Source: a virus (taxonomy: Duplodnaviria > Heunggongvirae > Uroviricota > Caudoviricetes). Taken from it: a stretch of 44,866 bases of DNA. The stretch lies in IMG/VR virus record IMGVR_UViG_2579778842_000011, positions 1-44,866 of that record, one strand, 5' to 3'. The notes beneath the pieces are model-generated. The model searched no databases and was not told the DNA's origin. It was given only the letters and a program-made list of their open reading frames with translations. Made by a program: the position numbers and the translations under genes. This document shows positions 10,891 through 44,043 of the stretch, piece by piece (the first letter of the stretch is position 1; the number at the start of each line of letters is the position of its first letter).

Positions 10891-10922
10891 AAAGCCATCA
10901 TATAATTCTCAGTGAAAGGTTA

Positions 10923-11105
10923 TTACCAGACCTCGGCGGTAATCTTTACTTTAATGTCATACTTCTTTAAGAGTTTGTGAAAGGTTGATTGATCAATACC
11001 TTCACCTTTAAACCATTCACCCATCACTACATCAGGTGTCAGTTCAAAATAACGCTTTGCCATTTCTAAAACGATTTCACGAGTGAACTTAACAGGTCGT
11101 GCCAT
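10923..11105 (-). CDS. Small DNA-binding protein with resolvase/Hin-type HTH-like motif
   Basis: 60 aa; AGGAGG RBS; RPVKFTRE...GIDQSTFHKLLKKYDIK pattern; paralogous to 14641..14865. Confidence 0.45.
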   Translation of the reverse strand: MARPVKFTREIVLEMAKRYFELTPDVVMGEWFKGEGIDQSTFHKLLKKYDIKVKITAEVW

Positions 11106-11158
11106 CTTGAATCCTCCTAAATCTGGATTAATGATTTCTTAAAAAAGAGCGTCAACCG

Positions 11159-11175
11159 CTCACTATTATTTATAT
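11159..11175 (-). promoter_or_regulatory. Recurrent 17-mer (copy 2, ATATAAATAATAGTGAG on minus strand) upstream of the 60-aa gene
   Basis: Followed by AGTGAGCGGTTGACG, which also occurs at 8335-8350 near the prophage junction. Confidence 0.4.
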
Positions 11176-11622
11176 GGGGATTGTATTTTATTTTTCAACC
11201 CCTCACATTTATCTCTTATATATGTATTTATAACAGAGATATGTTAAAATGTTATTCAGATGTTATCAGACGTGTTAAATGTGTTAAACCGCAGCACGAA
11301 TTGCTAAAGCGGAGAGCACGAATTAACCAAATTGATGTATATTCAATCAATTTAGAAAAAGGCATAGCACTTTTTGCTAAAGCGGTGAGCATTAATTGAG
11401 CTATGAATTGTAAAGATTTGTTACAAGATTTTCTCTCAGATCCAAATCTTCACAAACATATAACAATTTAACAGAAGGATAACAAATGAAAGGAAATCGG
11501 TAAATTTTCACTTTCAATACAAATATTATACCACATTTTTCTCGAATTGTCAATTATAGCACCGATCCTACACAGTGTCAACAAAGGATTTTCAAACCTA
11601 CACTAGCCCTACACTATGAAAA

Positions 11623-11808
11623 TTGCCCCTGAATTTTTGCCCCTGAACCAAAATCCCCTAGATTCCACATCCAATTTTTGCCCCTGAAACCCACTATTTT
11701 TGCCCCTGAAATTCTGGGAAACAGTGATTTTGCCCCTCATTTTTGCCCCTGAAATGCCAATAATTGCCCCTGAAAATCTAATTTTTGCCCCTGAAATTTG
11801 CCCCTGAA
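11623..11808 (+). repeat. Iteron-like array: 9 direct copies of TTGCCCCTGAA (8 exact, 1 variant)
   Basis: Copies at 11623, 11637, 11678, 11700, 11730 (variant TTGCCCCTCAT), 11743, 11764, 11785, 11798; all same orientation, irregular 13-41 bp spacing, within a 1.4 kb region lacking ORFs of 60 aa or more. Confidence 0.75.
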
Positions 11809-12436
11809 AAGGATTTGTGAGAAAAACTCTTTATAAAACATTAACTTAGTGAGTGGCAAAACGGGGAATCGGGCGTGCATAGATATTATATAACACATTC
11901 GCTACGCTCATGTGTAAAACCAAAAACAACAAATAACCAAAAAGATATTAGGAGGGCGTAGCCCGACTGCGCGAAGCGCTAACCAATTACTTCTAGTAAC
12001 ACTAATTTAAACTAGATGATACTAGATGGTCTTAGAAGGAATTAACTAGTTTGCTCGCTCGCTTCGCTCACTCTCAAACGTCTGCGACGCCACTGCGTGG
12101 CATCGAGAATCACTTCTGAAAGGATTTTCTTGAAAGGGATTTTAAACTAGTTACTAACTGATTCTAGAAAGATAGTAATAATCACTTTGAAGATAATAGT
12201 AGTTAACTGGTTACTAGATGATTCTAGATCACTTTAATGATCATGAAAGGTATTGGTATCCCTTCGGGATTGCAACCTTCGGTTGCTAAATTGCTTCCTG
12301 ATTATAATTTCTCCAAAAGAAAGATTCTTATATTCTAAAGATACTTCTTCGTTTTGATGATGATTTAATCAAAATCTATGAAGGAGGCGAAGCCGACTGA
12401 ATACCAATTCCTTTCAAATTAGACAAAAATTTCTCG

Positions 12437-12453
12437 TTATAAATAATAGTGAA
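12437..12453 (+). promoter_or_regulatory. Recurrent 17-mer (copy 3, TTATAAATAATAGTGAA) about 35 nt upstream of gene 12489
   Basis: Sequence identity to copies 1 and 2. Confidence 0.4.
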
Positions 12454-12488
12454 CTTACTTTGATTCACTTTTTTAGAGGATTTCCACT

Positions 12489-12941
12489 ATGATCAATACT
12501 AAAACTCCTTTCATTCTTCTGGGTCTGAACCATGATGATAATCTGGCTATGATGCATGTTTTCGCTAATCGTGGTTATAACATCATTCGTCATTCCGAAG
12601 ACTCCAATTTCTCAACTGCTTTCTATGCTCTTAAACGTAATGGTCGCCCTACGGTGATCGTAGACTGCTTTACTGATGAAGGTCGTGAACAATACAACAA
12701 CATTCCGGCAATTATTGTTCGTGATGACCTGCCGTTTGATGTTCGTGAATATGACGTTGATTTAGGCTCTTACTATGGGATCGCCGATCTTGACCAGATT
12801 ATGGCTGATTATGGTAAACAACCCGCTCAGGAAGCCCCAGAACGAGATGAACAAGACGAAGATGACGACGACTACACACCAATCTGTTTCTCTTCTCACG
12901 GTGGCTTCTACGGTTACGATGAAGGCTTAGATATGCTGTAA
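12489..12941 (+). CDS. Hypothetical acidic early protein
   Basis: 150 aa; AGAGGA RBS; C-terminal ERDEQDEDDDDY acidic run. Confidence 0.5.
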   Translation: MINTKTPFILLGLNHDDNLAMMHVFANRGYNIIRHSEDSNFSTAFYALKRNGRPTVIVDCFTDEGREQYNNIPAIIVRDDLPFDVREYDVDLGSYYGIADLDQIMADYGKQPAQEAPERDEQDEDDDDYTPICFSSHGGFYGYDEGLDML

Positions 12942-12963
12942 TTTAGGTCAACCCTTTGGCGTC

Positions 12964-13005
12964 TTGTCAAGGGGTATTGACAAAAATTTCTGACTTTTTT
13001 ATGAT
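12964..13005 (+). promoter_or_regulatory. Candidate sigma70 promoter with overlapping inverted repeat (operator-like)
   Basis: TTGACA 12977-12982, 17 bp spacer, TATGAT 13000-13005; inverted repeat TTGTCAA(12964)/TTGACAA(12977) overlaps the -35. Confidence 0.45.
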
Positions 13006-13061
13006 TATCTCACTTGACAATTTTGAACCTATTTGACCTAGATTTGTAAAGAGGATGTAAC

Positions 13062-13394
13062 ATGAAAGAATTTACCATCACTAAATCCCTGTATGACTGG
13101 ACTGTTAAAATCTCCGGCAAAACCGTTTCTGTAACCCCTAGCCATGTAGAAAATGATTGGGGCGTATCCCGTGAAACTATCTCCCGTAGTATGCATGTTC
13201 CGTTTGATCTGATGTCCTTAACTGGTATTCATGCAATGCTGGAAGTTCGCGAACAATTCGAAGCTGGTAATCACAATGCGACTCCAGTTAGCAATCACCT
13301 TCTTACTAATGAAGAACGTGAAATCATCGAAAACTGGCGTTATGAATATGCGATTCCTTATTATGAAGAAGACCAAGTAGAAATCGATTGGTAA
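13062..13394 (+). CDS. Hypothetical protein
   Basis: 110 aa; AGAGGA RBS. Confidence 0.5.
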   Translation: MKEFTITKSLYDWTVKISGKTVSVTPSHVENDWGVSRETISRSMHVPFDLMSLTGIHAMLEVREQFEAGNHNATPVSNHLLTNEEREIIENWRYEYAIPYYEEDQVEIDW

Positions 13395-13493
13395 TAAATT
13401 TCTATCATAAATAAAAATGTTCCGCGCGCCGTTGGCGTGTGGACAGTTAAAAACAGGAGGATCATCACTAAACCGTTTAAGGGGAATTTAATT

Positions 13494-14324
13494 ATGAATA
13501 CTGTTACTGCTATGAATACTGCTAAAACTGCTTCCGTGTCTCTGGTTGTTGATAACACCAAACCGCTGACCATGTCTTCCCGTCAGATCGCTGAATTTAC
13601 CGGAAAAGAACACCACAAAGTTAAAGTTGATATAACTAAGATGTTGAATGCTCTAGGTTATGAAGATCACGCGAAGTTTCGCGTCATCTATTTTGACCAA
13701 TACGGACGCGAACAAAACGAATATCAACTAGACGAAGAAATGACTCTGACTCTTGTCACTGGTTACGATGTTAAGCGTCGAATGGTTGTTATTCAGGAAT
13801 GGAAACGACTGAAAGAAGAAAATGAAAAACTGCGTTCTCAGCAAGTCAACCCATACGCAAACATGACTAAGCTCGATTGGATTCGTGAGGCAATGGAATT
13901 GGAAGCCGCAAACGAACAACTGATTCAAGAAAAGAAACAACTGGTTGAATTGCATGTTCGTAAAGCTATCGACACACACAGTCTTAGCCGCTTATTAGGC
14001 GAAAAACGAGGCTCTACGAAGGTACAAATTATTCTGAAAGGTTTATGTGCTGCTGGTGTTCTTGAGCGTCGTCTGGATGCTTCTGGTAAGCCTAAAGGCT
14101 ATGATCTGCTTCCTCCTGGCTATATGTTCGCTCGTATGTCGGCACACGGTCAGATCGAGTTCACTGCTGATGCTATCCCGCATCTCGTAAAACTCGGATT
14201 GCTCGAAGAAGAAAAGGCCGCAACTTTGAAATTGCCACAGCCGAATAACTCACGAGCAATCGTCAATAATACTGCTTTGCTGATTCGTCAGAATGCTGGA
14301 TCACTGGAACACTTCGGACTGTGA
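13494..14324 (+). CDS. Rha-family phage regulatory protein / antirepressor-like
   Basis: ATG 13494 after AAGGGG; N-terminal LTMSSRQIAEFTGKEHHKVKVDITKML resembles the Phage_pRha domain; the track start at 13437 is a GTG without RBS. Confidence 0.55.
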   Translation: MNTVTAMNTAKTASVSLVVDNTKPLTMSSRQIAEFTGKEHHKVKVDITKMLNALGYEDHAKFRVIYFDQYGREQNEYQLDEEMTLTLVTGYDVKRRMVVIQEWKRLKEENEKLRSQQVNPYANMTKLDWIREAMELEAANEQLIQEKKQLVELHVRKAIDTHSLSRLLGEKRGSTKVQIILKGLCAAGVLERRLDASGKPKGYDLLPPGYMFARMSAHGQIEFTADAIPHLVKLGLLEEEKAATLKLPQPNNSRAIVNNTALLIRQNAGSLEHFGL

Positions 14325-14332
14325 TAATTTTT

Positions 14333-14356
14333 GCCCCTGAATTTCAGGGGCTTTTT
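14333..14356 (+). terminator. Rho-independent terminator built from the iteron motif
   Basis: GCCCCTGAA-T-TTCAGGGGC perfect inverted repeat followed by TTTTT. Confidence 0.75.
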
Positions 14357-14395: not shown

Positions 14396-14598
14396 TTCGA
14401 AAGAATCAATAGGTTAGAGATGAGCGCAGTTTTGCGCCGATTGATTCAAGTTTGAATTTCTCGAAAGAATCAACCACTTAGATAGATACGCTGAACTTTA
14501 AGCACATCCCCTCAGTTTTGAGGGCATCTATAGATCAGTCCAAATCTCTGGACTCATCGGAAGAATCAATGACTTATAGATGAGCGCAGTTTTGCGCG
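14396..14598. repeat. Three dispersed copies of an approximately 40-bp unit with embedded small hairpins
   Basis: Units start 14396, 14459, 14556 (TCGAAAGAATCAA...TTAGAGATGAGCGCAGTTTTGCGC); hairpins GCGCA-GTTTT-GCGC, CCCTCA-GTTT-TGAGGG, AGTCCA..TGGACT, ATTCAA-GT-TTGAAT. Confidence 0.6.
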
Positions 14599-14603
14599 GA
14601 TAT

Positions 14604-15587: not shown

Positions 15588-17492
15588 ATGAAACTGATTT
15601 CAAATAAGGCCAAATTAAAAAAGATTCTCAGAAATATCTCTGCTGCAATTCGCCCACCTAAAGCCATGAAGCCTAGCGAATGGGTAGAGGCTAATGTAGT
15701 TGCAACCGATGGTGTTAAAGCCGGATCGCTAATTAAATTGCATCCCTTCCAACGTGGAATGATGGACGCGATCACCGAAGACCGTAGAAAAATTGTGTTT
15801 AAATGTTCGGCACAGTTGGGTAAGACCATGATTCTTAACGGAATTATCTTCCATCGGATCGCGAGTAACCCTACTAATATTGGGGTCTTGCAAAGTAACG
15901 TTAGGGAACTAAATTCTTGGATCGCTGGTAAGGTGAAGCCAGTATTAGAGGCAACGCCAGAATTAAAAGCGATGATCACCGACAAATCAGACCGTAATGC
16001 TGTTAACAACTCATCGATTATTCAGCTTCGTAATGGATCATTCATGTATTTCATGTCGCTGAACAGTCCATCACACTTGCGCGGTAAGACACTCCCTTTG
16101 ATTATTCTTGATGAAGTTGATGCGGCTGATGAATCAGACGAAGGGAACCCGATCCAGCTAGCGGAACAACGCGCAACCACTTTCGGGGAAGATGCAAGGA
16201 TCGTAATTGCTTCCACTCCAACCGCTCGTGATGGGGCGATTAACCAACAATGGGAACTCTCGGATAAGAGAAAATATCATGTCGTTTGCCAGCATTGCGG
16301 ACACAAGCACGTAATGGAATGGAGTAACGTACATTTCGATTGGCATACGATTAACGGTAAATCATTACCCAACCCAGATACAGCCGTTTACCGTTGCCCT
16401 GAATGTGAAACCGATTGGACCGAAGGGGATCGCCTCCGTGCTGTTGCTCAGGGAGAATGGGTCGCCACCGAACCAAATGCGGAAGTAATCGGTTTTCATG
16501 CTAACCGCCTTATGTCTCCGTTTAGTTCTATCCGTGCGTGTGTGGTGGACTTTGCTGATAGCTACGCGAATATGTCCCTGGCAACGTTCTACAATACAGT
16601 CCTCGGTGAAACCTTCGATGATCTTAACGAAGATCGCACAGCCGACGAACTGGAAACGCTGAAAACTGATATTAGCCTAGACAATATTCCTGATGATGTA
16701 CTGGCTCTGGTAGGTGGAGTTGACCAGCAAAAAGACCGTCTGGAATCTACCTTGCTGGGTATTTCTCGTAAAGGGCTATGCGTAGTTGATCACCGATCAT
16801 TCTATGATGTGAACTGCGAACGCCACGAATCACCAGCATATAACCAGCTTTACAACTTCCTGAAAGCTAAATTCTATACCCGATCCGGTGAACGAATCCC
16901 GATGTTATCTGCTTTCGTGGACTCATCGAACGGACGAGCTACAAACGTGATCTATCGATTCTGTAGTCGGTGGCAAAATCTAACCGCCATTAAAGGCGCA
17001 AGCAATGTTGATGCACCAATCCTTCCGGTAAAAGACACAAGAACGGGTGGTTTTACCCTTAAAATTCTGGGCGTAAACAACCTTAAAACGATGATCCGTG
17101 AAATGATTAACCGGAACTTGAGAGATGGCGATCCTCACACTGTCTTCCAGATTGGTGACGTTCCTGATGACTATTGCGAGCAATTGCTTTCTGAACAGTT
17201 GAAACGGCAGGGTAATACCACACGTTGGGTAAAAGTTGGACAAACACGAAACGAAGCGTTGGACTGCCTGGCTTATTCCTATGCTGCTTCTCGTCATGTA
17301 CTCAATAAAATGTCATGGGAAAAACTCGAAGCCATCAAAGATAGTTTGAACCGTGAACCAGAAGAATCCGTAGAAGCTCCTAAATCGCAATCTAACGAGC
17401 AAATCGAAGAAACTAAGCCAATCACACGACCACAACGTAAAAACATCGCCAGACGCCCAAATAGAGGCCGTAGCTGGGTAACATCGTTCTAA
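15588..17492 (+). CDS. Terminase large subunit (lambda GpA family)
   Basis: 634 aa; Walker-type segments; C-terminal WVKVGQTRNEALDCLAYSYAA resembles recalled lambda gpA RNEALDCFVYALAA. Confidence 0.85.
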   Translation: MKLISNKAKLKKILRNISAAIRPPKAMKPSEWVEANVVATDGVKAGSLIKLHPFQRGMMDAITEDRRKIVFKCSAQLGKTMILNGIIFHRIASNPTNIGVLQSNVRELNSWIAGKVKPVLEATPELKAMITDKSDRNAVNNSSIIQLRNGSFMYFMSLNSPSHLRGKTLPLIILDEVDAADESDEGNPIQLAEQRATTFGEDARIVIASTPTARDGAINQQWELSDKRKYHVVCQHCGHKHVMEWSNVHFDWHTINGKSLPNPDTAVYRCPECETDWTEGDRLRAVAQGEWVATEPNAEVIGFHANRLMSPFSSIRACVVDFADSYANMSLATFYNTVLGETFDDLNEDRTADELETLKTDISLDNIPDDVLALVGGVDQQKDRLESTLLGISRKGLCVVDHRSFYDVNCERHESPAYNQLYNFLKAKFYTRSGERIPMLSAFVDSSNGRATNVIYRFCSRWQNLTAIKGASNVDAPILPVKDTRTGGFTLKILGVNNLKTMIREMINRNLRDGDPHTVFQIGDVPDDYCEQLLSEQLKRQGNTTRWVKVGQTRNEALDCLAYSYAASRHVLNKMSWEKLEAIKDSLNREPEESVEAPKSQSNEQIEETKPITRPQRKNIARRPNRGRSWVTSF

Positions 17493-23399: not shown

Positions 23400-26300
23400 A
23401 TGCAGTCGATCCAATTTAAACGCACACAAACGGCTGGTAAAAAACCAACGCCGGAACAATTATCACAGGGTGAAATCGCCTTACAACTGGCGGACCATGT
23501 GATTTACACCAAAGATAAAAATAATAACGTAGTCCAAATTAGTGTTTCTCCAGAAAAACACGCTGAACTGAATACGAAAGTAGACACCAACAAGGTCAAT
23601 ACAGATAAAGTCATTTCAGCAAATAAAACCGAAGCCGCTAATAATCTGGCTAGTGCTAAAGCTGAACTTAATCAGACTATCACTTCTACCCGTGATGCTC
23701 TCAATGCTTCAATCACTGCTGGCGACACCGCAGCCAACAAACGAATTGATGCTTTGACTACCACAGTAGGTAACAATAAAACCGAAGCGGCTAACGCTCT
23801 GGCGGCTGCTAAGACTGAACTGAATCAGACTATTACTTCAACCCGCGATACTATCAACGCAACAATTAACAAGAACAAGACAGATATTAATGCACGAGTT
23901 GATCAGACTAATACCAACGTTACTAACTTAACGAATAATATCGCAGCAAATAAATCAGCAATAGAAAAGACGGTAGCGGATAATAAGAAAGATGCGGACA
24001 CGAAGATCACCAATCTTACTAGTACGGTCTCTGCGAATAAGACATCCATTGAAAGAACTGTTGCAAATAACAAGGCCAGTGCCGATGCCGCAATTGCCGC
24101 AGCTAATCAGCGAATTGATTCTATTGAAGGTAGTGCCGATGCTGCTTACATCAAGAAGAATACCAACACTTACCATCACGGCTATCTGTTAACCAAAACA
24201 GCTAACTATTTGGAAGACCAGACAGCGAGAGATCTTAACTACTTTGGTGCTTTCCGTACCAATGGTCAAGATGGACTCATGGATCTAACTCTTAACGTTC
24301 CTCACTCTGCCGGCAAAGCGCACGGTCGCGGATTTACTTTCCGTTATGCGTCTGGTGGATCTCGTGTTGAAACCTATGGTTTTGATAGAGAAGGACAGAA
24401 GAACTTTAGCTATAAGATGTATCACGAAGGTGATAAGCCGACTCCTGGCGAAATCGGTGCATACACTAAAGCAGAAGTTGACAAGATGTTTGTTAAAAAC
24501 GTCACTATGTCTGTTCCTAATTCTAGCGAAAACGTATCTGCATATTTCAAATTGGCAACCGCAACAATTCCACAAAACGGGCGTAGTGTGTTTTTCCGTA
24601 TTCATGGTGGTAATGGTTACAACGTTACGGCATATGACCAAGTTGATGTAGTAGAAATTCTTCTCCGTAGTGGTAACGATAGACCTAAAGGACTTAACGT
24701 AGTTGCATATCGTCGAAATACCGTCAAAGATTTTGATGTATTTGCCGTCAATACATCCGGTGATAACTATGACATTTATGTGAAATATCAGCGTTACACT
24801 GATAACGTTATTGTTGAATTTGGTAAAAGTGTTTATGTTAATCTGACTGTTCACGATACACCGGAAGCCACGTTAATTAAACCTTCTGTTGGTGTTATTG
24901 ATGGGCGCATCATTACTCTATTCAATACAGAAAACAAACGAGGTGTGTTGAGTTTTGACGATAACCCACAAAATAGTTATGATATTGTTCACTTGAGTAA
25001 TGATAGGGGTACTGGACGAAAATATATTCGTAAATTCCGTAGCAACTATAACGAAATGATCTGGCATGAGACGGTTCAAGGTTCTACTTATCGACTCGCC
25101 ACGGGTAGTACAGATGCCCAGGAGATTCTATCCGTTGAATCTAGTAGCTCTATTGCTGGGACTCATAAAGGTAATATTCTTTCTGGTCGAATGATGTTGG
25201 GTGGCGGTAGTAATGTTATTACCTTGCGGCGTCCTGCTGGTCAATCCAACCATATTACGTTTCAAGATAATCGGACTGGATCTATTACCCGTCAAGGGTG
25301 GATCGGTTATGGTAATGCTGATACTAACGTTTTTGAATGGTATAGTGATGTAGGTGGCAGTTCTATTCGTCACCACATCGACGGACAGATCGAACTTGCA
25401 ACCGGTAACACAAAACGCGTTTATACTAACGCTCAATTCATCTCAATGAATAGCGACGCCTACCGTATGCTCTATGGTAATTATGGTGCATTCTGGCGTA
25501 ATGACGGCGTTAAAGTTTATCTTCTTTCTACTGCCGAAAATGATAAATTGGGCGGATGGAATACTTATCGTCCATTCATTTATGATTTAACTTCCGGCAA
25601 CGTTCAATTAGGCGGTGATGGTAACGAAGATGCATTAACGTTAGAACGTGCTTCTCGTGCCGCTCGCTTTAGTAATGACGTTTACATTAAGAAAGGGCAT
25701 TTGACTTTCGACGCTGGGCGATTAAATTCCCGCGATTATTTCCGGTTTAACCATTGGGGTGATAGCAATAACGGTCGCGATAACATCCTACAGATTGAAG
25801 ACAGTCAGGGCGCACATTTTATCACTGAACGTGCTATGGGTACTGGTAACATAACAACACGTTTTAGAGGCTTTGTACGTGTAGAATCTGGTGAAATTGC
25901 ATTTGATGCTAACCGTGGTTCTTCTTCGCAATTTAGTCTCCATACATGGGGTAACGAGCAACGCAAACAGGTTTTTGAATGTAAGGATGCTACAAGTTAT
26001 CACTGGTATACTGAACGTACTCAGGGTGGCACTGGACCTATTCTGTTCTCTATGGCGGGTAGTCTAAACGTTGCTAGCAATATCACAACAACTGGTGCTG
26101 ATATTACGTTTAAACGCGCTGGCAATAAGCACATCTGGTTTAGAGATCCAAACGGTTTAGAGTTGGGCTTGATGTATTGCGATGACGCTGGTGTTATTCG
26201 CTTCCGTGGTGAGAAACAAACCGAAGTCTGGAAATTCGGCGGTAAGATGATTCACCTTGAAACGGGCACTGTATCCGGTGGCGGTAATGGTCTTATTCGT

Positions 26301-26918
26301 GGTAGCGTTGCTGGTGGTAGTTGGGCTAGCTGGCGTGATCGTGCTTCTGGTATTCAGGTCGACTGTCAACAATCAACCGATTCCGCTCATAACGTATGGA
26401 AAGCAACCCATCAAGGTAAATATCATATCGCAGCAATGGGTGTACATGTTCCTAGCGGTACTATCGGTAATGCTATGGTTCAACTTCATGTTCATGATAC
26501 CAACTTTATCTTTAACGCTGCTGGTGATTTTACCGCAGGTCGTAACGGTAGCTTTAACGATGTTTACATTCGCTCTGACTCTCGTCTGAAAATTAACAAG
26601 GAAGAATTACAGGACGGTGCATTAGAGAAAGTAAACTCCTTGAAAGTCTACACCTACGATAAAGTTAAATCTCTTTCTGATGACACGGTAATTAAACGCG
26701 AAGTCGGTATTATTGCTCAGGATCTGGAAGAAGTATTGCCGGAAGCAGTAGGTATTCAATCCACCGAAGATCCAGAAAATCCAGAAGCAATTAAGACGAT
26801 TTCTAACTCCGCTGTTAATGCCTTGATTATTAAAGCTATTCAGGAAATGGACGCCAAATATAAAGCCCAGATCGAAGCATTACAGAAAGAAATTGCCGAA
26901 CTCAAAGCAACTAAATAA
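23400..26918 (+). CDS. Tail fiber protein with C-terminal intramolecular chaperone (peptidase S74-like) domain
   Basis: 1172 aa; repetitive N-terminal Ala/Asn/Thr-rich segment; C-terminal SDSRLKINKEELQDGALEKVNSLKVYTYDK...coiled coil typical of self-cleaving fiber chaperone domains. Confidence 0.75.
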   Translation: MQSIQFKRTQTAGKKPTPEQLSQGEIALQLADHVIYTKDKNNNVVQISVSPEKHAELNTKVDTNKVNTDKVISANKTEAANNLASAKAELNQTITSTRDALNASITAGDTAANKRIDALTTTVGNNKTEAANALAAAKTELNQTITSTRDTINATINKNKTDINARVDQTNTNVTNLTNNIAANKSAIEKTVADNKKDADTKITNLTSTVSANKTSIERTVANNKASADAAIAAANQRIDSIEGSADAAYIKKNTNTYHHGYLLTKTANYLEDQTARDLNYFGAFRTNGQDGLMDLTLNVPHSAGKAHGRGFTFRYASGGSRVETYGFDREGQKNFSYKMYHEGDKPTPGEIGAYTKAEVDKMFVKNVTMSVPNSSENVSAYFKLATATIPQNGRSVFFRIHGGNGYNVTAYDQVDVVEILLRSGNDRPKGLNVVAYRRNTVKDFDVFAVNTSGDNYDIYVKYQRYTDNVIVEFGKSVYVNLTVHDTPEATLIKPSVGVIDGRIITLFNTENKRGVLSFDDNPQNSYDIVHLSNDRGTGRKYIRKFRSNYNEMIWHETVQGSTYRLATGSTDAQEILSVESSSSIAGTHKGNILSGRMMLGGGSNVITLRRPAGQSNHITFQDNRTGSITRQGWIGYGNADTNVFEWYSDVGGSSIRHHIDGQIELATGNTKRVYTNAQFISMNSDAYRMLYGNYGAFWRNDGVKVYLLSTAENDKLGGWNTYRPFIYDLTSGNVQLGGDGNEDALTLERASRAARFSNDVYIKKGHLTFDAGRLNSRDYFRFNHWGDSNNGRDNILQIEDSQGAHFITERAMGTGNITTRFRGFVRVESGEIAFDANRGSSSQFSLHTWGNEQRKQVFECKDATSYHWYTERTQGGTGPILFSMAGSLNVASNITTTGADITFKRAGNKHIWFRDPNGLELGLMYCDDAGVIRFRGEKQTEVWKFGGKMIHLETGTVSGGGNGLIRGSVAGGSWASWRDRASGIQVDCQQSTDSAHNVWKATHQGKYHIAAMGVHVPSGTIGNAMVQLHVHDTNFIFNAAGDFTAGRNGSFNDVYIRSDSRLKINKEELQDGALEKVNSLKVYTYDKVKSLSDDTVIKREVGIIAQDLEEVLPEAVGIQSTEDPENPEAIKTISNSAVNALIIKAIQEMDAKYKAQIEALQKEIAELKATK

Positions 26919-38450: not shown

Positions 38451-38804
38451 ATGTTAAGCAAACATTTTTCTCGCAAGGAATTTAAATGTAAATGCGGAAA
38501 ATGTGATTATGATACAATCGACGCTGAATTACTGGTAATTCTTGAGGATGTACGAGAGCACTTCGGGAAACCAGTAATTATTAACAGTGGGAACCGTTGC
38601 CCGACTCATAACAAGAATGTAGGCGGTGCAACCAACAGCTATCACGTTCGAGGCCGTGCTGCTGACATTGTGATCAAGGGTGTCTCCCCTGATATTGTCC
38701 ATGCTTATCTTGATGGGAAATATCCTACTCAATACGGCTTAGGCAAATATAAAACCTTTACGCATATCGATTCCAGATCGAAAAAATCACGATGGAATGG
38801 ATAA
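38451..38804 (+). CDS. Endolysin, peptidase M15 family (zinc peptidoglycan peptidase)
   Basis: 117 aa; NSYHVRGRAADI and FTHID motifs (His/Asp zinc ligands). Confidence 0.75.
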   Translation: MLSKHFSRKEFKCKCGKCDYDTIDAELLVILEDVREHFGKPVIINSGNRCPTHNKNVGGATNSYHVRGRAADIVIKGVSPDIVHAYLDGKYPTQYGLGKYKTFTHIDSRSKKSRWNG

Positions 38805-38810
38805 AATTAA

Positions 38811-38835
38811 AGCGCCTCTAGTGGGCGCTTTTTTG
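38811..38835. terminator. Bidirectional rho-independent terminator between endolysin and the helicase gene
   Basis: AGCGCC..GGCGCT hairpin followed by TTTTTT on plus strand and T-rich run on minus. Confidence 0.7.
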
Positions 38836-40326
38836 TTATATAGCAATGGTTTTAGTTGCATAGCTGAACTTGTCGGTTAGATAATAGCGGATTCTCTCAA
38901 GTGCATGTTTTACCGCATAATTTTTATGCTTGACTTTTCCGTTACGACCGAATATACACAGATGATCTATAAGATCCCAGACCGTTGCAATATCCTTAGA
39001 ACCATGTTTACGCAATGCACGACCGATACTCTGACGAACGATAGTTGATTCCTTCACTGGATGACCGAAAATAACATGGTGCAAATTCTTAATTGAAACA
39101 CCAGTAGAGAACACACCATAGGATGCAACACAAATGATCCCTGTTTCCCCTTCCGCTAATTTCTTAAATTCATCACGTTCTTCTGTCTTAACTCCACCGT
39201 CAATATAATAAACCTTGTCGTGTACCTTCTGTAACGCATCATACATAAGTTTTCCGTGCTTAGTATTGCGGAACATCAGGAATACGTTTTCGCCCTTCTT
39301 AGCGAGTTTTAGCGCCAAATTACAAGCAAACTTATTTCGTCGTGGGTTAGACGTAATATACTTGATCTCTTCCGCATATTCCCGCCCCTTAACCGCGCTA
39401 CATTCCTCATCGGTATAACGAAGGAAAAGGCAGTTAATTTTCAGTTTTGTCACTTGACCTTCTTCCATCAGGCGGTCAATACTCACGATCTTAGAAATAT
39501 CACCGAAAAGCCCGACGTACTGCATTAAATGGCACTTTGATTCTTTCGGGGAACCAGTCATACCGATTTTGAACTGGCAATGATTCATTCCGTTAATGAT
39601 ATTGGTAATATTTTTGGCACTAGCCTTATGTGATTCATCAACTATCAACATTCCATATTGTTTGAACCATTCAGGAGGCATCTTGCAAGCTGATTGCCAG
39701 GTACTAACCGTGATTAACCTGTCTCCCGGATGTTTCCCGCTACCACTCATCATTGTATGAATTGCTTCATAAGGGAATAGCCTATAATCGACAAAATCAT
39801 CCCTCATTTGAACCACCAGCGATGTAGTAGGGACAATGATTAGAACTTTTCCGGTGTAGTTCTCTAAGTACCAACGAGACAGCATACAAGCAATCAATGA
39901 CTTACCCGCACTGGTAGGAAGAACCAGCATTCTACGGCGATTATGAATACCCTGAAAGACTGCCTCCCTTTGATACCAGTAAGGATTGATTTTATTGGAA
40001 CCGGAATACACTTCTAGGGAATCAATCCATTCATTAATCGCGTCTTTGGTTACATCTTCCTTCTCAAGCAATCTGGGGTCAATCCAGACTGAATAGCCCA
40101 TATTTTTAACGAAGACACCCAACGTTTTTAATAGTCCAATTGGTAGGGTGTTTTCATGCGTAAACAGTCTTATTCGTCCATCCCAGCCAGAATACTTGTA
40201 ACGGGGGCTAAACCTAGCCCCTTCAACCTCAAACGAGAAATAATCTCTTAATTCCATTCCGATAGAAGGAGAGCAATCAACCTTAACGAAACTGTAATCT
40301 TGAAAATGAATTTTAATATCTTGCAT
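38836..40326 (-). CDS. SF2 DExH helicase, T4 UvsW-like
   Basis: ATG at 40326 overlapping upstream stop (TAATG); N-terminus MQDIKIHFQDYSFVKVDC and whole length resemble recalled T4 UvsW; motifs LPTSAGKSL, DESH, QSIGRALRKHG. Confidence 0.8.
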   Translation of the reverse strand: MQDIKIHFQDYSFVKVDCSPSIGMELRDYFSFEVEGARFSPRYKYSGWDGRIRLFTHENTLPIGLLKTLGVFVKNMGYSVWIDPRLLEKEDVTKDAINEWIDSLEVYSGSNKINPYWYQREAVFQGIHNRRRMLVLPTSAGKSLIACMLSRWYLENYTGKVLIIVPTTSLVVQMRDDFVDYRLFPYEAIHTMMSGSGKHPGDRLITVSTWQSACKMPPEWFKQYGMLIVDESHKASAKNITNIINGMNHCQFKIGMTGSPKESKCHLMQYVGLFGDISKIVSIDRLMEEGQVTKLKINCLFLRYTDEECSAVKGREYAEEIKYITSNPRRNKFACNLALKLAKKGENVFLMFRNTKHGKLMYDALQKVHDKVYYIDGGVKTEERDEFKKLAEGETGIICVASYGVFSTGVSIKNLHHVIFGHPVKESTIVRQSIGRALRKHGSKDIATVWDLIDHLCIFGRNGKVKHKNYAVKHALERIRYYLTDKFSYATKTIAI

Positions 40327-40895
40327 TAGTTCCACTCCACACTTGCAATATTCTTTATATTGTTTAGTGATTTATTGCAGTAGTGGAATGTTTCAGTTTT
40401 GCCGTATTCAATCCCGCCTATACCCACATCCAGTAATCTCTTTATTGCTCTTTCAGTGGCTAAAGCATGTTTCATTGATGGCATTTCACCAGCAAAGACA
40501 ATATCAAAGTTATGACCGGGATTGCGTACACCCAGATTAATGCGTCGCTTGATGATTGACTTTGTTACACCAAATTTACCAATATCCCCTGATTTCATTA
40601 CATAGAGATAAGGCACACCCGCTTTATATTGAAAGTAATCACTTTTGAGACATGCACAGCGTTTACCTTCATTAAGCAGGTTGGTAGCTGATTTGTCGGC
40701 TCTATTGCCGCATCGGGTACATGTAAGAGCAATTCTTGAATGAAGCCCTTTAAACTCACCCAGAAAGCCATGAAAGACTAATGGTAAGTCCTTATCTTTG
40801 ATGTGAGTCAGAATGCGTTGTTCTAATGCCGATGGAGTTACAGCACGGGAGGATTTAGGAGTAAAAACAATATCTTTAGCCATTACTGGAATCAT
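40326..40895 (-). CDS. Zinc-ribbon + T5orf172/GIY-YIG-like domain protein
   Basis: 189 aa; GAGG RBS; CTRCGN...CAC Cys cluster; YLYVMKSGDIGKFGVTK...R...E pattern. Confidence 0.5.
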   Translation of the reverse strand: MIPVMAKDIVFTPKSSRAVTPSALEQRILTHIKDKDLPLVFHGFLGEFKGLHSRIALTCTRCGNRADKSATNLLNEGKRCACLKSDYFQYKAGVPYLYVMKSGDIGKFGVTKSIIKRRINLGVRNPGHNFDIVFAGEMPSMKHALATERAIKRLLDVGIGGIEYGKTETFHYCNKSLNNIKNIASVEWN

Positions 40896-41017
40896 ATAGA
40901 CCTCACTTTTTTAACTTATAGGCATAACCTCAATATGGTTGGTTTGGGATTTAGGGTCGCGTATTATACACATTCAGATAGAGAATGCAATAGTAAGACA
41001 ATTTTCTCTAATAAATA

Positions 41018-41036
41018 GTAGTGAGCTTATTATTTT
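41018..41036 (+). promoter_or_regulatory. Variant copy of the recurrent 17-mer (TAATAAATAGTAGTGAGC) upstream of gene 41050
   Basis: Similarity to the copies at 9204, 11159 and 12437. Confidence 0.3.
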
Positions 41037-41049
41037 AGAGGAAACTACT

Positions 41050-42225
41050 ATGAAACTTGCTTACGCTGCCGAAATTCCTTTTGTTAAGAAAACTCGCGGT
41101 TTATCACCGGAAGAGTACCAACAACGAATCATCGCTAAACTGGAACCTGCTTTCGTATTTGGTGGATTTATCCTACCGTGGAAGGGTAATCACACTTACT
41201 TTCGAATCTACAATTTAGACACACAAGAATATAAGGACTACAAATTACGCAAACTGGAAGATACTAACGGGGGTGAGTTATTCCAGACTGAAAAGGCTGT
41301 ATGGTTGAAAATGGAATCTCGTTGTAATGAGAAGGGAAAGAAATTCCTCGGATGGCAAGGAGAATGGAAAGGGCGAAATAGAACGAAAGCCCGTGTTTTG
41401 TGCCCTGAACACAATCAAATCATGACGCCATCTCTATTACATGCTCTCAAAGATGATTTCGATTTTGATTGCAAAATCTGTATGGCTGAAAAATCCCAAC
41501 GGGTAAGAAGTGGCAAGACTTTTGATGAAGTTATTAAGGACAAAGAGACAATCATCAATGCACGTTGCGAGAGTACGCCTTACACCTTCAAAGGATTCAT
41601 CATAAACACCCCACACCTAAAGGATGTTAAATTTAAAACCTATTGCAAGACACATAACCACGAATGGGAATCTCATTTAAGATGTGCTGATTCTTTCACT
41701 TGTCCGCTTTGCATTAAAGACCAACTGGTGCAACTGTCTAACCGGACTTATCAGGGTAAGGCTAGTTTCTACATTCAATTATTAGATGACAAATTTATTA
41801 AATTTGGAATCACTACCCGGAAACCAGAAGAACGAATGAGAGAGCAAACCAGAAAGAGCAACTTCACTCACCGCTTAATCTTTACTCATGAGTTTGAGGA
41901 TGGTTGGAAAGCCGTTGATTTAGAGCATGAAGTAAAACAACGCTTCAAGACTCATGCAGCACCCTACAAAGATTTCAAGGATGGATGGTCGGAAACTCTG
42001 ACTATTGATGAGTTACCACACTTACAGCAACTGGTTTATGACTACCTAACCAATCAACCGGACGAGGCTAATATGTGGGTATCCCCGAAAGATGTATTTG
42101 ATGACGATACATTCAAGCTACATACTCACTTCTACGGCATCAATAAACCGGAATTTTTCTGTATTGATGACGACAGTCCTGATTTAATGGATGAATACTT
42201 TAATACGCTCTTAGACGCTGCCTAA
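41050..42225 (+). CDS. Paralogous protein with two Cys/His zinc-ribbon modules and C-terminal T5orf172/GIY-YIG-like domain
   Basis: ATG 41050 after AGAGGA (track ORF begins upstream without RBS); CPEHN...CKIC and CKTHNHEW...CPLC; FYIQLLDDKFIKFGITTRK. Confidence 0.45.
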   Translation: MKLAYAAEIPFVKKTRGLSPEEYQQRIIAKLEPAFVFGGFILPWKGNHTYFRIYNLDTQEYKDYKLRKLEDTNGGELFQTEKAVWLKMESRCNEKGKKFLGWQGEWKGRNRTKARVLCPEHNQIMTPSLLHALKDDFDFDCKICMAEKSQRVRSGKTFDEVIKDKETIINARCESTPYTFKGFIINTPHLKDVKFKTYCKTHNHEWESHLRCADSFTCPLCIKDQLVQLSNRTYQGKASFYIQLLDDKFIKFGITTRKPEERMREQTRKSNFTHRLIFTHEFEDGWKAVDLEHEVKQRFKTHAAPYKDFKDGWSETLTIDELPHLQQLVYDYLTNQPDEANMWVSPKDVFDDDTFKLHTHFYGINKPEFFCIDDDSPDLMDEYFNTLLDAA

Positions 42226-42242
42226 CGCAATTAAATTAAAAA

Positions 42243-42271
42243 GGGGTACATCTGTACCCCTTAACTGTTTT
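42243..42271. terminator. Hairpin terminator between convergent genes
   Basis: GGGGTACA-TC-TGTACCCC inverted repeat flanked by A-run and T-rich tail. Confidence 0.5.
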
Positions 42272-42298: not shown

Positions 42299-43978
42299 TT
42301 AAATTCCAAATTCCTGTAATGGACCTGGTATTTCCTCTTCTGGTTTCCAGTTCTTATCTGTCAGCATGTCTAAACATGGATGCAGAACAAGCCCGTTACT
42401 CTCCAGAATCTGCCTATCATTGATAGTTTTCAAATCGACAAAGATTTGTCCTTTCCTCGTTCCTCTTGAATTTTCTATTACAACTCTCTGGGTCTTTCCA
42501 TCGATGTATTCCAGTACAAACAAGTTTTTGTTTCTGTCAATCCTGCTACACCCGATCCGCTTTAGAGCTTGCTTAATCTTAAACCGGACCTTTAGTCGTT
42601 CCTCGTTGTAAACATCTTCTAAATCAAATTCTGCGAGCTTCTCCCAGCCTTGAGAGTCAACAGAATACATTTCCTCTTCTGCCATCTTGATCTGATTGTA
42701 GAGTGTTTCACGCTCGCTATTGAGGGTAGTAATCTGATCGGCTAGCTCCTTCGTTGCTCCTGTCATAGCAGAAAGGGCAATCAGGTTATCAATCTTGCGT
42801 GATATCTCATCAACCTGTACTTTTAAAGCCGGAACCGGATTAGCCTTGTCCTCAGCAATCCAGATTTTATCAGCCAGCAATTGCAATACAGCTTTCTCTA
42901 ATTGATCACCTCGAAAACTCCAGTTTGGATGCTCGCAATCAAGTCTACGTGAACGGGTCGCATCACATGTATAACGATACTGGTCAGAACGTTTGTTCGT
43001 TCCCTTCACTTTAACCATAGCGCAACCGCAATGATCACATTTCAATAGGCCAATACCACTAAGCAGGGGGATCGGTTTAACTTCTTCCTTGTCTCCAAAG
43101 TTCCATGCTCTAGCACCAATATTTTTCTTAAGGTGATAGAACGTAGGGTCATCAATAACACGAGGGTAATAATCCTTTAACTCATAGTTAACGCCATCTA
43201 CAGAGACCTCCTTGATACCAATCAAAGCGCGGGTATGAAACAACCTTTCAACCATTGCCCGTGACCATTTTGAATGCTTCTTGTTGCTAACCGCTGGTGG
43301 CGGTGTATAAGTCTCGTTAAGGTGATCCAGTATCTCGGCGGTTGAACGTCCATTCTTCCGTAATTCCACAATCTCCTGAACAACAGGGAAGTACACCGGA
43401 TGAGGCAGCACATAACCGGAAGTGGTATCAGTCCACCACATATTCTTTCCAACTTCCTCGATTGCCACTGCCGGATTCTGGGGATTTTCTTGATGCGACT
43501 TAATCTTAATCAGTGCGCTTGAGTTAGTACGATTGCGCTTAGTCTGACTTTCCTCATTACCACGGATGAATAGAAGGATGGAGAACATCAGGTCCATCGG
43601 ATTAGCGGTAACAGTATCCAGCGAGTAGATCTTGTTATCCATGCCAGTAACAATGGTTATTCCCCTACGGATGATTGAAAGGAATAACTCCTGCGCACTG
43701 ACAATATCGGCACGGGATAAGCGGTCCAAGTTTTCAATGAATAGCCAGCTACCAACAGGAACGGATCTACCAATTGCATCAAGGAAACGAGATAGCGCCC
43801 CTGTTTTAGAGTTAGCACCTTTAAACGCAGATACACCCAGATCCTGATAATCATTTACCAGTTCAAGGTCATACTTTGCCGCAATCTCTCTCGCCATCCT
43901 GATTTGTCGTTCATAACTCGAACCATCACTCTGACGCATAGACGAGAAGCGAATATACGAATACAGTTTAGTTTTCAT
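42299..43978 (-). CDS. Large serine recombinase (phage integrase of the serine family)
   Basis: ATG at 43978 (track start 43993 is TTG); N-terminal YSYIRFSSMRQSDGSSYERQ resolvase catalytic motif, ENLDRLSR, Cys-rich zinc ribbon CDHCGC...CDATRSRRLDCEH, coiled coil. Confidence 0.85.
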   Translation of the reverse strand: MKTKLYSYIRFSSMRQSDGSSYERQIRMAREIAAKYDLELVNDYQDLGVSAFKGANSKTGALSRFLDAIGRSVPVGSWLFIENLDRLSRADIVSAQELFLSIIRRGITIVTGMDNKIYSLDTVTANPMDLMFSILLFIRGNEESQTKRNRTNSSALIKIKSHQENPQNPAVAIEEVGKNMWWTDTTSGYVLPHPVYFPVVQEIVELRKNGRSTAEILDHLNETYTPPPAVSNKKHSKWSRAMVERLFHTRALIGIKEVSVDGVNYELKDYYPRVIDDPTFYHLKKNIGARAWNFGDKEEVKPIPLLSGIGLLKCDHCGCAMVKVKGTNKRSDQYRYTCDATRSRRLDCEHPNWSFRGDQLEKAVLQLLADKIWIAEDKANPVPALKVQVDEISRKIDNLIALSAMTGATKELADQITTLNSERETLYNQIKMAEEEMYSVDSQGWEKLAEFDLEDVYNEERLKVRFKIKQALKRIGCSRIDRNKNLFVLEYIDGKTQRVVIENSRGTRKGQIFVDLKTINDRQILESNGLVLHPCLDMLTDKNWKPEEEIPGPLQEFGI

Positions 43979-44043
43979 ACCATTTCCAAACAAAAACGCC
44001 CCTACCGTGTATTATAACGATAGGGGCATTGGTTAGTAAGTCA

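What the first reader, a model, noticed from the sequence alone, without database searches (positions are those of the whole stretch)
38836..42225. T4 UvsW-like helicase in an operon with one zinc-ribbon/T5orf172 protein and facing a divergent paralog
The 496-aa helicase resembles T4 UvsW along its full length, including the N-terminal DNA-binding domain, yet sits in a temperate lambda-like prophage. It is translationally coupled (TAATG) to an upstream 189-aa protein combining a Cys cluster with a GIY-YIG-superfamily T5orf172-like domain. A larger paralog with two Cys/His modules and the same C-terminal domain is encoded divergently and carries the recurrent 17-mer in its promoter. A helicase plus nuclease-like partners between the lysis genes and the integrase could be a recombination/replication-restart module acquired from T-even-like phages, a mobile homing-endonuclease-like cassette, or a prophage-encoded defence or anti-defence module.
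Basis: partly seen in the sequence, partly recalled or inferred. Interest (0 to 1): 0.65.

Follow-up and report, generated by a model that had tools for sequence, protein, structure and literature searches.

The report
Captured T-even uvsW among prophage nuclease genes
A temperate E. coli prophage carries a working copy of the uvsW recombination helicase gene taken from virulent RB49-like (T4-related) phages, set between two homing-endonuclease-like nuclease genes, and it still swaps near-identical DNA patches with those phages.

Summary
Window 38836-42225 holds a full-length UvsW helicase (496 aa). It is translationally coupled (TAATG) to a 189-aa CapR-zinc-finger/T5orf172 protein and faces a divergent 391-aa relative. 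The block lies between the endolysin and a large serine integrase of an E. coli prophage inserted next to ycdY.

It is an optional cassette. Of 58 complete E. coli genomes with this prophage end, 17 carry uvsW; the others carry different T5orf172 genes in the same terminator-bounded slot.

The helicase comes from Krischvirus (RB49-like) phages. Relatives keep uvsY and gp51/gp27 fragments in T-even gene order. The window's gene is a chimera with a 552-bp patch 98.4% identical to RB49 uvsW. In Krischviruses, uvsW is itself flanked by homing endonuclease genes, and its divergence piles up next to them.

UvsW and the small nuclease gene are under purifying selection (omega about 0.1). The nuclease genes match the T5orf172/CapR putative homing endonucleases of ICP1, T5-like and Krischvirus phages, with a GIY-YIG fold and conserved Arg/Glu.

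Best reading: a captured T-even recombination helicase embedded in a nest of selfish or domesticated site-specific nucleases. No known defence family matches, but an anti-Krischvirus role is not excluded. This is a new variant of a known kind, of moderate interest.

The parts
38809..38831 (.). Bidirectional terminator hairpin. Left border of the variable cassette slot (homology between prophage variants ends at 38838).
   Evidence: Terminator scan. Variant alignments stop at 38838.
38836..40326 (-). uvsW: 496-aa SF2 helicase, a full-length orthologue of T4/RB49 UvsW.
   Evidence: Pfam UvsW_N + ResIII + Helicase_C. T4 UvsW 2OCA E 3e-184. 81% aa identity to RB49 UvsW. omega 0.03-0.12.
38959..39510 (-). 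Krischvirus-derived conversion patch inside uvsW (gene nt 817-1368).
   Evidence: 9 mismatches in 552 nt to RB49 against 172 to prophage-type L005. Informative sites are 159 RB49-like and 3 L005-like here, against 37 and 214 upstream; Fisher p 4e-73. All 9 differences are synonymous.
40326..40895 (-). Small CapR zinc-finger + T5orf172 (GIY-YIG fold) protein, 189 aa, translationally coupled to uvsW (TAATG).
40963..40990 (-). Candidate sigma-70 promoter TTGCAT-16 nt-TATAAT for the small-gene/uvsW operon.
   Evidence: Read by eye from the sequence. Below the threshold of the consensus scan. Lies in the intergenic stretch conserved in all variants. Unverified.
41011..41024 (+). Copy (13/14) of the phage motif ATAAATAATAGTGA, 25 nt upstream of the large gene's ATG.
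   Evidence: 4 hits in the window against 0.01 expected. Conserved before the large T5orf172 gene in all E. coli variants and in Salmonella L009/L010.
41050..42225 (+). Large T5orf172/MUG113 protein, 391 aa. It has an N-terminal AxxIxF motif, repeated CapR-type C/H modules and an acidic C-terminal tail.
   Evidence: Pfam CapR E 5e-10, MUG113 27.3 bits (cut-off 22.3). PHROG 681 E 9e-44. The closest phage homologue (29% aa) is the ORF inserted between uvsW and uvsW.1 in Krischviruses Whisky and JK32.
42241..42262 (.). Bidirectional terminator. Right border of the slot (homology between variants resumes at 42211).
42299..43993 (-). Large serine recombinase (prophage integrase). Context only, not part of the cassette.
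   Evidence: Pfam Recombinase + Zn_ribbon_recom. PHROG 95 integrase E 2e-63.

Best explanation
The block is an optional cassette in the variable slot between the lysis genes and the serine integrase of a temperate siphovirus-type prophage family of E. coli and Salmonella, inserted next to ycdY.

Origin: its core is a genuine T-even uvsW gene captured from Krischvirus (RB49-like) phages. It was originally captured together with uvsY and a piece of the baseplate-hub region. In the window's lineage those have decayed away, while uvsW has stayed intact.

Nuclease genes: uvsW sits among two free-standing nuclease genes of the T5orf172/CapR type, which are regarded as homing endonucleases in ICP1, T5-like and Krischvirus phages. 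By inference, their zinc-finger modules read a specific DNA site and their GIY-YIG-type domain cuts it. Their coding bodies turn over rapidly between fixed, conserved flanks, and they can be lost by microhomology deletion.

Expression and function: the small nuclease gene and uvsW form one translationally coupled operon, probably read from a sigma-70-type promoter. The large gene has a phage-specific promoter motif shared with early genes. UvsW most likely gives the phage extra branch-migration, fork-regression and R-loop-removal capacity during lytic growth (inferred from T4 UvsW).

Ongoing exchange: because the prophage copy remains homologous to uvsW of infecting Krischviruses, the two genomes keep exchanging patches by homologous recombination.

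Shown here: homology, capture, mosaicism, polymorphism and purifying selection. Inferred: nuclease activity and targets, the benefit of UvsW, and any causal role of the nucleases in the exchange.
For: - Identity of the helicase.
- Krischvirus origin and recent exchange: 80-85% nt identity to 56 Krischvirus records. 552-bp patch at 98.4%.
- T-even gene order in relatives: L005 has a uvsY fragment 100% aa identical to RB49. Full-length UvsY occurs in L009/L010 and L014-16. gp51/gp27 fragments are 96-98% identical to RB49 and Whisky.
- Optional cassette with sharp, terminator-bounded borders: 17 of 58 genomes have uvsW.
- Selection: omega 0.03-0.12 for uvsW and 0.11-0.22 for the small gene. uvsW stays intact in variant B after both nuclease genes were deleted at 8-9-bp microhomologies.
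- Nuclease family: CapR and T5orf172/MUG113, PHROG 681, GIY-YIG fold, invariant Cys4, Arg and Glu. CapR Cys residues are required for DNA binding (PMC8096241). The T5orf172 protein Odn cuts DNA in vitro (PMC8263062). T5orf172/CapR genes sit at boundaries of exchange (PMC10448857).
- Allele turnover between conserved flanks.
- In Krischviruses: HEGs flank uvsW, and divergence from RB49 piles up on the HEG side.
- T4 UvsW functions: PMC3016281.
Against: - No nuclease activity, target site or homing event is shown for these proteins.
- The prophage's T5orf172 genes have no close (more than 30% aa) counterparts in sequenced Krischviruses or in IMG/VR virulent contigs. No recent HEG traffic between the two phage types is visible.
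- A comparable near-identical Krischvirus patch exists in the tail-fibre gene, where no HEG is nearby. Ordinary homologous recombination is therefore enough to explain the uvsW patch.
- The small gene is conserved next to uvsW in every helicase-bearing lineage sampled (six), under purifying selection. This is more than a purely selfish element would predict.
- The benefit of UvsW is unknown, and about 70% of related prophages do without it.
Confidence: 0.55

Rival explanations
1. Anti-Krischvirus weapon (defence or inter-phage competition). The lysogen expresses site-specific T5orf172 nucleases that cut incoming Krischvirus DNA at or near shared loci. It may also express a UvsW that is present too early in a T-even infection and unwinds origin R-loops or D-loops. 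In some relatives, UvsY and truncated gp27 would act as dominant-negative decoys.
For: - The location is a typical accessory/moron slot next to the integrase, with rapid allele turnover of the DNA-binding nucleases. Such turnover is expected in an arms race.
- All foreign material in the slot comes from one virulent genus that infects the same host.
- Variant F carries two tandem gp27 N-terminal ORFs, each matching a different Krischvirus allele at 96-98%.
- In T4, UvsW is a late protein whose appearance shuts off origin R-loops (PMC3016281).
- T5orf172 nucleases have been weaponised before, as with Odn.
Against: - No PADLOC model matches the nucleases, and the helicase gives only generic SF2 hits.
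- Nothing shows expression in the lysogen.
- The helicase is an ordinary orthologue under ordinary purifying selection. uvsY and the gp27 pieces decay in most lineages, as passengers would.
- The tail-fibre patch shows that exchange happens without any defence logic.
Confidence: 0.2
2. Dedicated two-component nuclease-helicase machine for the prophage's own DNA metabolism. The small T5orf172 protein is a domesticated partner of UvsW, for example a structure- or site-specific nuclease that creates or resolves the branched substrates UvsW migrates. It would work in replication restart, recombination-dependent replication or clean-up before packaging.
For: - Adjacency and translational coupling or near-coupling are conserved in all six helicase-bearing lineages sampled, from E. 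coli to Salmonella, with helicase identity down to 67%.
- omega is 0.11-0.22.
- The best structural matches are SLX1 structure-specific nucleases.
- No other recognisable replication gene was found in the prophage early region.
Against: - Each gene occurs without the other. Variant B has uvsW alone in 4 complete genomes. Variant C has a small-protein homologue alone.
- Small-gene alleles are only 40-50% identical where the helicases are 67-84% identical. They are replaced between conserved flanks, like cassettes.
- In Krischviruses, UvsW works with no such partner.
- Most related prophages lack the pair.
Confidence: 0.15
3. Functionless hitch-hiker: a decaying remnant of an accidental recombination with a T-even phage.
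For: uvsY and the gp27/gp51 pieces are clearly decaying. The cassette is dispensable in most relatives.
Against: uvsW is intact in all 17 complete-genome carriers and in Salmonella relatives, with omega 0.03-0.12 and all helicase motifs present. It is retained when its neighbours are deleted.
Confidence: 0.05

Closest known systems
UvsW of T4 (PDB 2OCA/1RIF) and of Krischvirus RB49
   Same: Same domain order (UvsW_N, two RecA-like SF2 domains) and the same motifs, aligned end to end. 81% aa identity to RB49 UvsW, including a stretch of about 185 identical residues. uvsY lies convergently downstream in relatives, as in T-even genomes.
   Different: It is encoded in a temperate prophage that lacks UvsX, gp32 and the rest of the T-even replisome. 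It has a prophage-type N-terminal half and C-terminal tail, with a 4-residue deletion before the last helix. It is preceded by a coupled nuclease gene rather than a T-even late promoter context.
T5orf172/CapR putative homing endonucleases of ICP1, T5-like and Krischvirus phages (Barth, Dunham & Seed 2023; Netter et al. 2021)
   Same: Same architecture: N-terminal repeated CapR-type zinc modules plus a C-terminal T5orf172 (GIY-YIG superfamily) domain with conserved Arg and Glu. They are free-standing genes next to an important DNA-metabolism gene and sit at boundaries of sequence exchange. The nearest phage relative lies directly beside uvsW in Whisky and JK32.
   Different: They are located in a temperate prophage's accessory slot. 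The small-protein family is confined to this prophage group (17 clusters). The small one is operonic and translationally coupled with the helicase. At most 30% aa identity to any phage-borne member. No activity data exist.
'HEG islands' (Barth et al. 2023)
   Same: A conserved gene, bracketed by HEG-type genes, shows much higher nucleotide identity between otherwise unrelated genomes than its surroundings do.
   Different: Much smaller: a 1.4-kb gene with a 0.55-kb near-identical patch, against more than 10 kb. It spans a virulent and a temperate phage. The bracketing HEGs themselves are not shared.
Odn (ICP1 Gp88) and PLE CapR: weaponised or domesticated relatives
   Same: The same nuclease and zinc-finger domains, used in conflicts between mobile elements.
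   Different: [quoted passage not shown] No target or conflict is demonstrated here.
Free-standing seg/mob endonucleases of T4 and marker exclusion (own knowledge, not tested here)
   Same: Free-standing GIY-YIG-type genes between conserved genes, with divergence or co-conversion tracts that abut the endonuclease gene. This pattern is seen here in Krischvirus uvsW.
   Different: A different GIY-YIG subfamily with different DNA-binding modules.

Membership tests
UvsW helicase family | N-terminal UvsW_N DNA-binding domain | tested here: met
   PF21241 E 2e-34, 118 bits against cut-off 25.3, profile positions 1-81 of 81.
UvsW helicase family | Full-length collinear similarity to T4 UvsW with SF2 motifs I, II, III and VI | tested here: met
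   phmmer against 2OCA E 3e-184, residues 3-494 against 2-500. PTSAGKS, DESH, TGS and QSIGRALRK are present.
UvsW helicase family | T-even gene neighbourhood (uvsY convergent downstream) | tested here: not met
   Absent from the window: 31 nt separate the uvsW stop from the endolysin stop. It is present in relatives: L009/L010 and L014-16 have full UvsY, and L005 has a 55-aa fragment.
UvsW helicase family | ATP-dependent branch migration and R-loop unwinding | not testable with these tools
   Biochemistry is required.
T5orf172/CapR homing-endonuclease family | CapR-type zinc-finger module (paired Cys/His) | tested here: met
   PF21817 is above cut-off in both proteins: 25.1 and 39.8 bits against 24.2. 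Four invariant Cys in the small-protein family.
T5orf172/CapR homing-endonuclease family | T5orf172 / GIY-YIG-superfamily nuclease domain with catalytic Arg and Glu | tested here: met
T5orf172/CapR homing-endonuclease family | Presence/absence or allele polymorphism at a fixed site among close relatives | tested here: met
   Variants A-F differ in which alleles they carry. Both genes are deleted in variant B. Gene bodies are replaced between conserved flanks.
T5orf172/CapR homing-endonuclease family | Site-specific cleavage of a HEG-less allele and copying of the gene into it (homing) | not testable with these tools
   No empty target site could be identified. Variant B arose by deletion, not as a naive site.
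HEG island (Barth et al. 2023) | Region of more than 10 kb with high nucleotide identity between diverged phages, flanked by HEGs | tested here: not met
   Only uvsW is shared: 1.37 kb at about 80%, including 552 bp at 98.4%. The concept is the same, but the scale is far smaller.
Known anti-phage defence systems (PADLOC-DB 2.0) | Match of the component proteins to a defence-system model | tested here: not met
   The nucleases and the integrase have no hit. The helicase gives only partial SF2-domain hits (PbeA, type IV REase, HamB; at most 44 bits).

The most novel reading that the evidence does not exclude
The slot is a Krischvirus-directed arsenal built from the enemy's own parts. The prophage would keep copies or fragments of Krischvirus genes. 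UvsW would be present at time zero and collapse origin R-loops or D-loops. In relatives, UvsY and allele-matched truncated gp27 would act as dominant-negative poisons. Fast-evolving zinc-finger nucleases would cut the invading genome. The shared homology would then let the prophage both damage and recombine with the invader.
Probability: 0.15. Interest if true: 0.8.

Novelty: new variant of a known kind. Interest (0 to 1): 0.5.

Why it matters
Gene flow between strictly virulent T-even-type phages and temperate phages is thought to be rare and is best documented for tail fibres. Here a core T-even recombination gene (with remnants of uvsY and gp27 in relatives) sits in a prophage. It carries a patch only 9 synonymous changes away from RB49, so exchange is current.

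The locus lies in a nest of T5orf172/CapR nuclease genes. The same gene is flanked by homing endonuclease genes in the virulent phages, with divergence tracts that abut them. This makes the 'nucleases mark boundaries of exchange' idea testable in E. coli, a tractable system. Natural variants are already available: block present, nucleases deleted, helicase absent.

It also matters for phage therapy. Krischviruses, which transduce and do not modify their DNA, can exchange genes with resident prophages.

Tried and rejected
- PADLOC and NCBIfam scans of the nucleases gave nothing.
- Recent HEG traffic was looked for and not found. Megablast of the block against phages hits only uvsW. tblastn of both nucleases gives at most 30% identity. 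The IMG/VR scan with the small-protein profile returned only prophage-type contigs.
- The gp27-fragment variant was searched in complete E. coli genomes, with no match.
- The early region 8000-14200 has no match in the phage collection, and almost no PHROG/Pfam hits. The phage's own replication system could therefore not be defined.
- The large T5orf172 protein as the integrase's directionality factor was rejected. The integrases are 99% identical where these proteins are 27% identical.
- Direction prophage to Krischvirus for the 552-bp patch was rejected. The patch sequence is contiguous and common to Krischviruses, and foreign to all other prophage lineages.
Full report
**1. What is there**

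The region holds three real genes between two bidirectional terminators, at 38809-38831 and 42241-42262.

- The minus-strand ORF 38836-40335 starts at the ATG at 40326 and encodes 496 aa. It carries UvsW_N (E 2e-34), ResIII and Helicase_C. It aligns end to end with T4 UvsW (2OCA, E 3e-184) with all SF2 motifs intact.
- Directly upstream, overlapping it by one base (…AAC TAA TG…, with GGAG 9 nt before the ATG), is a 189-aa gene at 40326-40895.
- The divergent gene is listed by the ORF finder as 428 aa. It almost certainly starts at ATG 41050 behind GAGGAA, giving 391 aa.
- Both of these proteins carry the Pfam CapR homology domain above its cut-off and match PHROG 681 'endonuclease' (E 1e-18 and 9e-44). 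The large one also passes MUG113 and nearly passes T5orf172.
- The two are only distant paralogues of each other.
- The flanks are an M15 endolysin (38451-38804) and a large serine recombinase (42299-43993).

**2. Host and element**

The left 8 kb of the window is E. coli chromosome (ghrA and a CP4-type island). The element is a prophage of about 36.5 kb lying between ghrA and ycdY, interrupting a phosphatase gene. The 8-kb right end of the prophage is found in 58 of 5426 complete E. coli genomes, always chromosomal. Related prophages sit at the same place in Salmonella enterica.

**3. The block is an optional cassette in a sharply bounded slot**

Homology between prophage variants stops at 38838, the helicase stop codon just past the endolysin terminator. 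It resumes at 42211, 14 nt before the large gene's stop. In complete E. coli genomes, 12 carry the full block, 4 carry the helicase only, 1 carries a diverged version, and the rest lack the helicase.

| Variant | Example locus | Content of the slot |
|---|---|---|
| A | the window | uvsW + 189-aa gene + 391-aa gene |
| B | L006 | uvsW only |
| C | L007 | a 193-aa homologue of the small protein (42% identity), an acidic ORF and a different 332-aa T5orf172 protein; no helicase |
| D | L008 | acidic ORF + 332-aa T5orf172 protein |
| E | L005 | uvsY fragment + uvsW (84% aa) + small gene (93.5%) + a 337-aa T5orf172 protein |
| F | L014-16, L023 | small gene (44%) + uvsW + full uvsY + two gp27 fragments |

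Variant B is variant A minus both nuclease genes. They were removed by two deletions at 8-9-bp microhomologies (CACATyCAG and ACGCTGCC), which left uvsW untouched. So a T5orf172 gene is the constant occupant of the slot, and uvsW is the variable one.

**4. The helicase comes from Krischvirus phages, and exchange is still going on**

Megablast of the region against 50,697 phage records hits only uvsW, in 56 records. All the listed hits are Krischvirus (RB49-like) phages of E. coli or Shigella, at 80-85% identity.

The gene is a chimera:

- Gene nt 1-816 are 'prophage type': 90-97% identical to variant E and 54-82% to RB49.
- Gene nt 817-1368 (window 39510-38959) differ from RB49 at 9 of 552 positions, all synonymous, but from variant E at 172 positions.
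- The last 130 nt are again prophage type, with a 4-codon deletion.

 Informative sites split 37 RB49-like to 214 L005-like upstream, against 159 to 3 in the patch (Fisher p 4e-73). The patch sequence is the common Krischvirus one and is foreign to every other prophage lineage, so the direction was Krischvirus to prophage.

Other lineages carry their own imports:

- The 55-aa UvsY remnant of variant E is 100% identical in protein to RB49 UvsY.
- Salmonella L009 and E. coli L014 have full-length UvsY lying convergent to uvsW, as in T-even genomes.
- L014 carries two tandem copies of 'end of gp51 + first 88 codons of gp27'. One is 96-97% identical to RB49/G5211 and the other 98% identical to Whisky.

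The simplest history is capture of a contiguous T-even segment (uvsW…uvsY…gp51/27). Everything except uvsW then decayed, and repeated gene conversion from infecting Krischviruses was overlaid on that. Krischviruses lack the hydroxymethyl-cytosine and endonuclease IV genes and are generalised transducers (PMC12115623). This gives a plausible route for recombinant host DNA to survive.

**5. uvsW is a homing-endonuclease battleground in the virulent phages too**

- RB49 has no endonuclease gene beside uvsW.
- G5211 has a GIY-YIG 'group I intron endonuclease' gene 4 nt upstream of uvsW.
- Whisky and JK32 have a 361-aa ORF between uvsW and uvsW.1. It is the closest phage-borne relative (29% aa, E 1e-34) of the window's 391-aa protein.

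Divergence from RB49 piles up on the endonuclease side. In Whisky and JK32 there are 20-23 differences in the last 100 nt, against 11 or fewer per 100 nt elsewhere. In G5211 there are 20-44 differences per 100 nt over the first 1 kb, and at most 5 per 100 nt over the last 500 nt. This is the pattern Barth, Dunham and Seed describe for T5orf172 and other HEGs at 'boundaries of genetic exchange' (PMC10448857).

**6. The two nuclease-like proteins**

The small-protein family is narrow: 17 clusters, all from E. coli or Salmonella. IMG/VR returns only prophage-type contigs. Its alignment has invariant C55, C58, C76 and C78 (a CxxC…CxC zinc finger), plus Y94, K103, G105, R113, E144 and a TETF motif.

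From the literature:

- The CapR cysteines are required for DNA binding (PMC8096241).
- The T5orf172 protein Odn cuts DNA in vitro and is killed by a Glu-to-Ala change (PMC8263062).

Activity of the present proteins is therefore plausible but inferred.

Across variants, two stretches are conserved. One is the divergent promoter region with the first codons of both genes (41052-40856). The other is the last 70 nt of the small gene together with uvsW (40397-38866). The gene bodies between these stretches are replaced by alleles only 27-50% identical.

The large gene is always preceded by the motif ATAAATAATAGTGA, which also precedes three early-region genes (4 hits against 0.01 expected). It is therefore wired into the phage's own regulation.

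**7. Selection**

| Comparison | omega |
|---|---|
| uvsW, window vs variant E, codons 1-270 | 0.12 |
| uvsW, window vs variant B | 0.03 |
| Small gene, window vs variant E | 0.11 |
| Small gene, comparisons involving Salmonella alleles (L009-L011, window-L009) | about 0.2 |

 Both genes are maintained as coding genes. The small gene accompanies uvsW in all six helicase-bearing lineages sampled, with overlapping or nearly abutting stop and start codons. Even so, each gene also occurs without the other (variants B and C).

**8. Interpretation**

I consider the block a captured T-even recombination helicase living in a nest of T5orf172/CapR nucleases. Those nucleases are either selfish homing-type genes or partly domesticated (confidence 0.55). 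UvsW probably adds branch migration, fork regression and R-loop removal to the phage's lytic DNA metabolism, as in T4 (PMC3016281). The prophage has no other recognisable replication or recombination gene. However, most relatives lack uvsW, so it is an accessory.

One caveat concerns causality. The tail-fibre gene (23400-26918) also carries a roughly 750-nt stretch 97-100% identical to Krischvirus ECD7 gp37, inside an 81% match, and no endonuclease gene is nearby. Plain homologous recombination with infecting Krischviruses is therefore enough to explain the uvsW patch. The nucleases may mark rather than make the boundaries.

Rivals:

- An anti-Krischvirus weapon (0.2): no known defence model matches, but the arms-race-like turnover and the allele-matched gp27 fragments are suggestive.
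- A dedicated nuclease-helicase pair (0.15).
- Junk (0.05): contradicted by the selection data.

**9. Novelty**

UvsW, T5orf172/CapR endonucleases and HEG-bounded exchange are all known. I found no description of three things:

- a T-even uvsW (with uvsY and gp27 remnants) in a temperate prophage;
- its operonic coupling to a T5orf172 gene;
- demonstrably current patch exchange between a virulent genus and a prophage at a non-structural gene.

Literature searches for UvsW with prophage, and for Krischvirus with prophage or homing endonuclease, turned up nothing on this. The Barth et al. paper does not mention helicases, prophages or temperate phages. I rate it a new variant of a known kind, with interest 0.5.

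Noticed in passing
window 23400-26918 (match 24183-26849; near-identical stretch roughly 24930-25680): The 1172-aa tail-fibre ORF (Gp34_trimer and Peptidase_S74 domains) is 81-84% nt identical to the Krischvirus long-tail-fibre distal subunit gp37. It contains a patch of about 750 nt that is 97-100% identical to phage ECD7. This is a second locus of recent exchange with the same virulent genus, and no endonuclease gene is nearby.
   Followed up: partly
L014 8574-9124 (also L015, L016, L023); not in the window: Some E. coli relatives carry, between uvsY and the endolysin, two tandem ORFs that each consist of the end of gp51 plus the first 88 codons of baseplate hub gp27. One is 96-97% identical to RB49/G5211 and the other 98% identical to Whisky, although those two phage alleles are only about 77% identical to each other. 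They could be decay products or allele-matched dominant-negative fragments. They are absent from complete E. coli genomes.
   Followed up: partly
window 9206-9219(+), 11160-11173(-), 12439-12452(+), 41011-41024(+): The phage-specific motif ATAAATAATAGTGA has 3 exact copies and one 13/14 copy, against 0.01 expected. Each lies 25-70 nt upstream of a start codon. The three exact copies are preceded by T, so they contain TATAAATA, which matches the T4 late-promoter consensus as I recall it (not checked here). This may be coincidence. Function is unknown.
   Followed up: partly
window 11622-11809 (plus a single copy at 14327-14349): An array of about seven direct repeats, ATTTTTGCCCCTGAAA, at spacings of 21-43 nt in a largely non-coding stretch of the early region. 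It looks like iterons or operators. The early region (8.6-14.3 kb) has almost no recognisable genes and no match in the phage collection.
   Followed up: no
window 14397-14601: Three copies of TCGAAAGAATCAAT…, two of them extended to 45 nt with GAGCGCAGTTTTGCGC, about 1 kb upstream of the large terminase gene. It may be a packaging or regulatory site.
   Followed up: no
L005 7949-8995; L005_337, L007_332 and L011_331 C-termini: Variant E has a third T5orf172 gene (348 aa, three CapR modules) on the far side of the integrase. Several large T5orf172 proteins that are only about 30% identical overall end in the same acidic tail, (E)LDL(S/E)PLE(A/D)L. This suggests a shared protein-interaction tip. 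The window's protein ends differently, in …DEYFNTLLDAA.
   Followed up: no
window 8628-9197: A small-terminase-like gene (PHROG 57, E 2e-15) lies at the left end of the prophage, 6.4 kb away from the large terminase gene at 15588-17492.
   Followed up: no
window 1-8300: The host flank is an E. coli CP4-type island (Ag43, DUF4942, DUF932, antitoxin) followed by ghrA. GC drops from about 55% to about 42% on entering the prophage.
   Followed up: no
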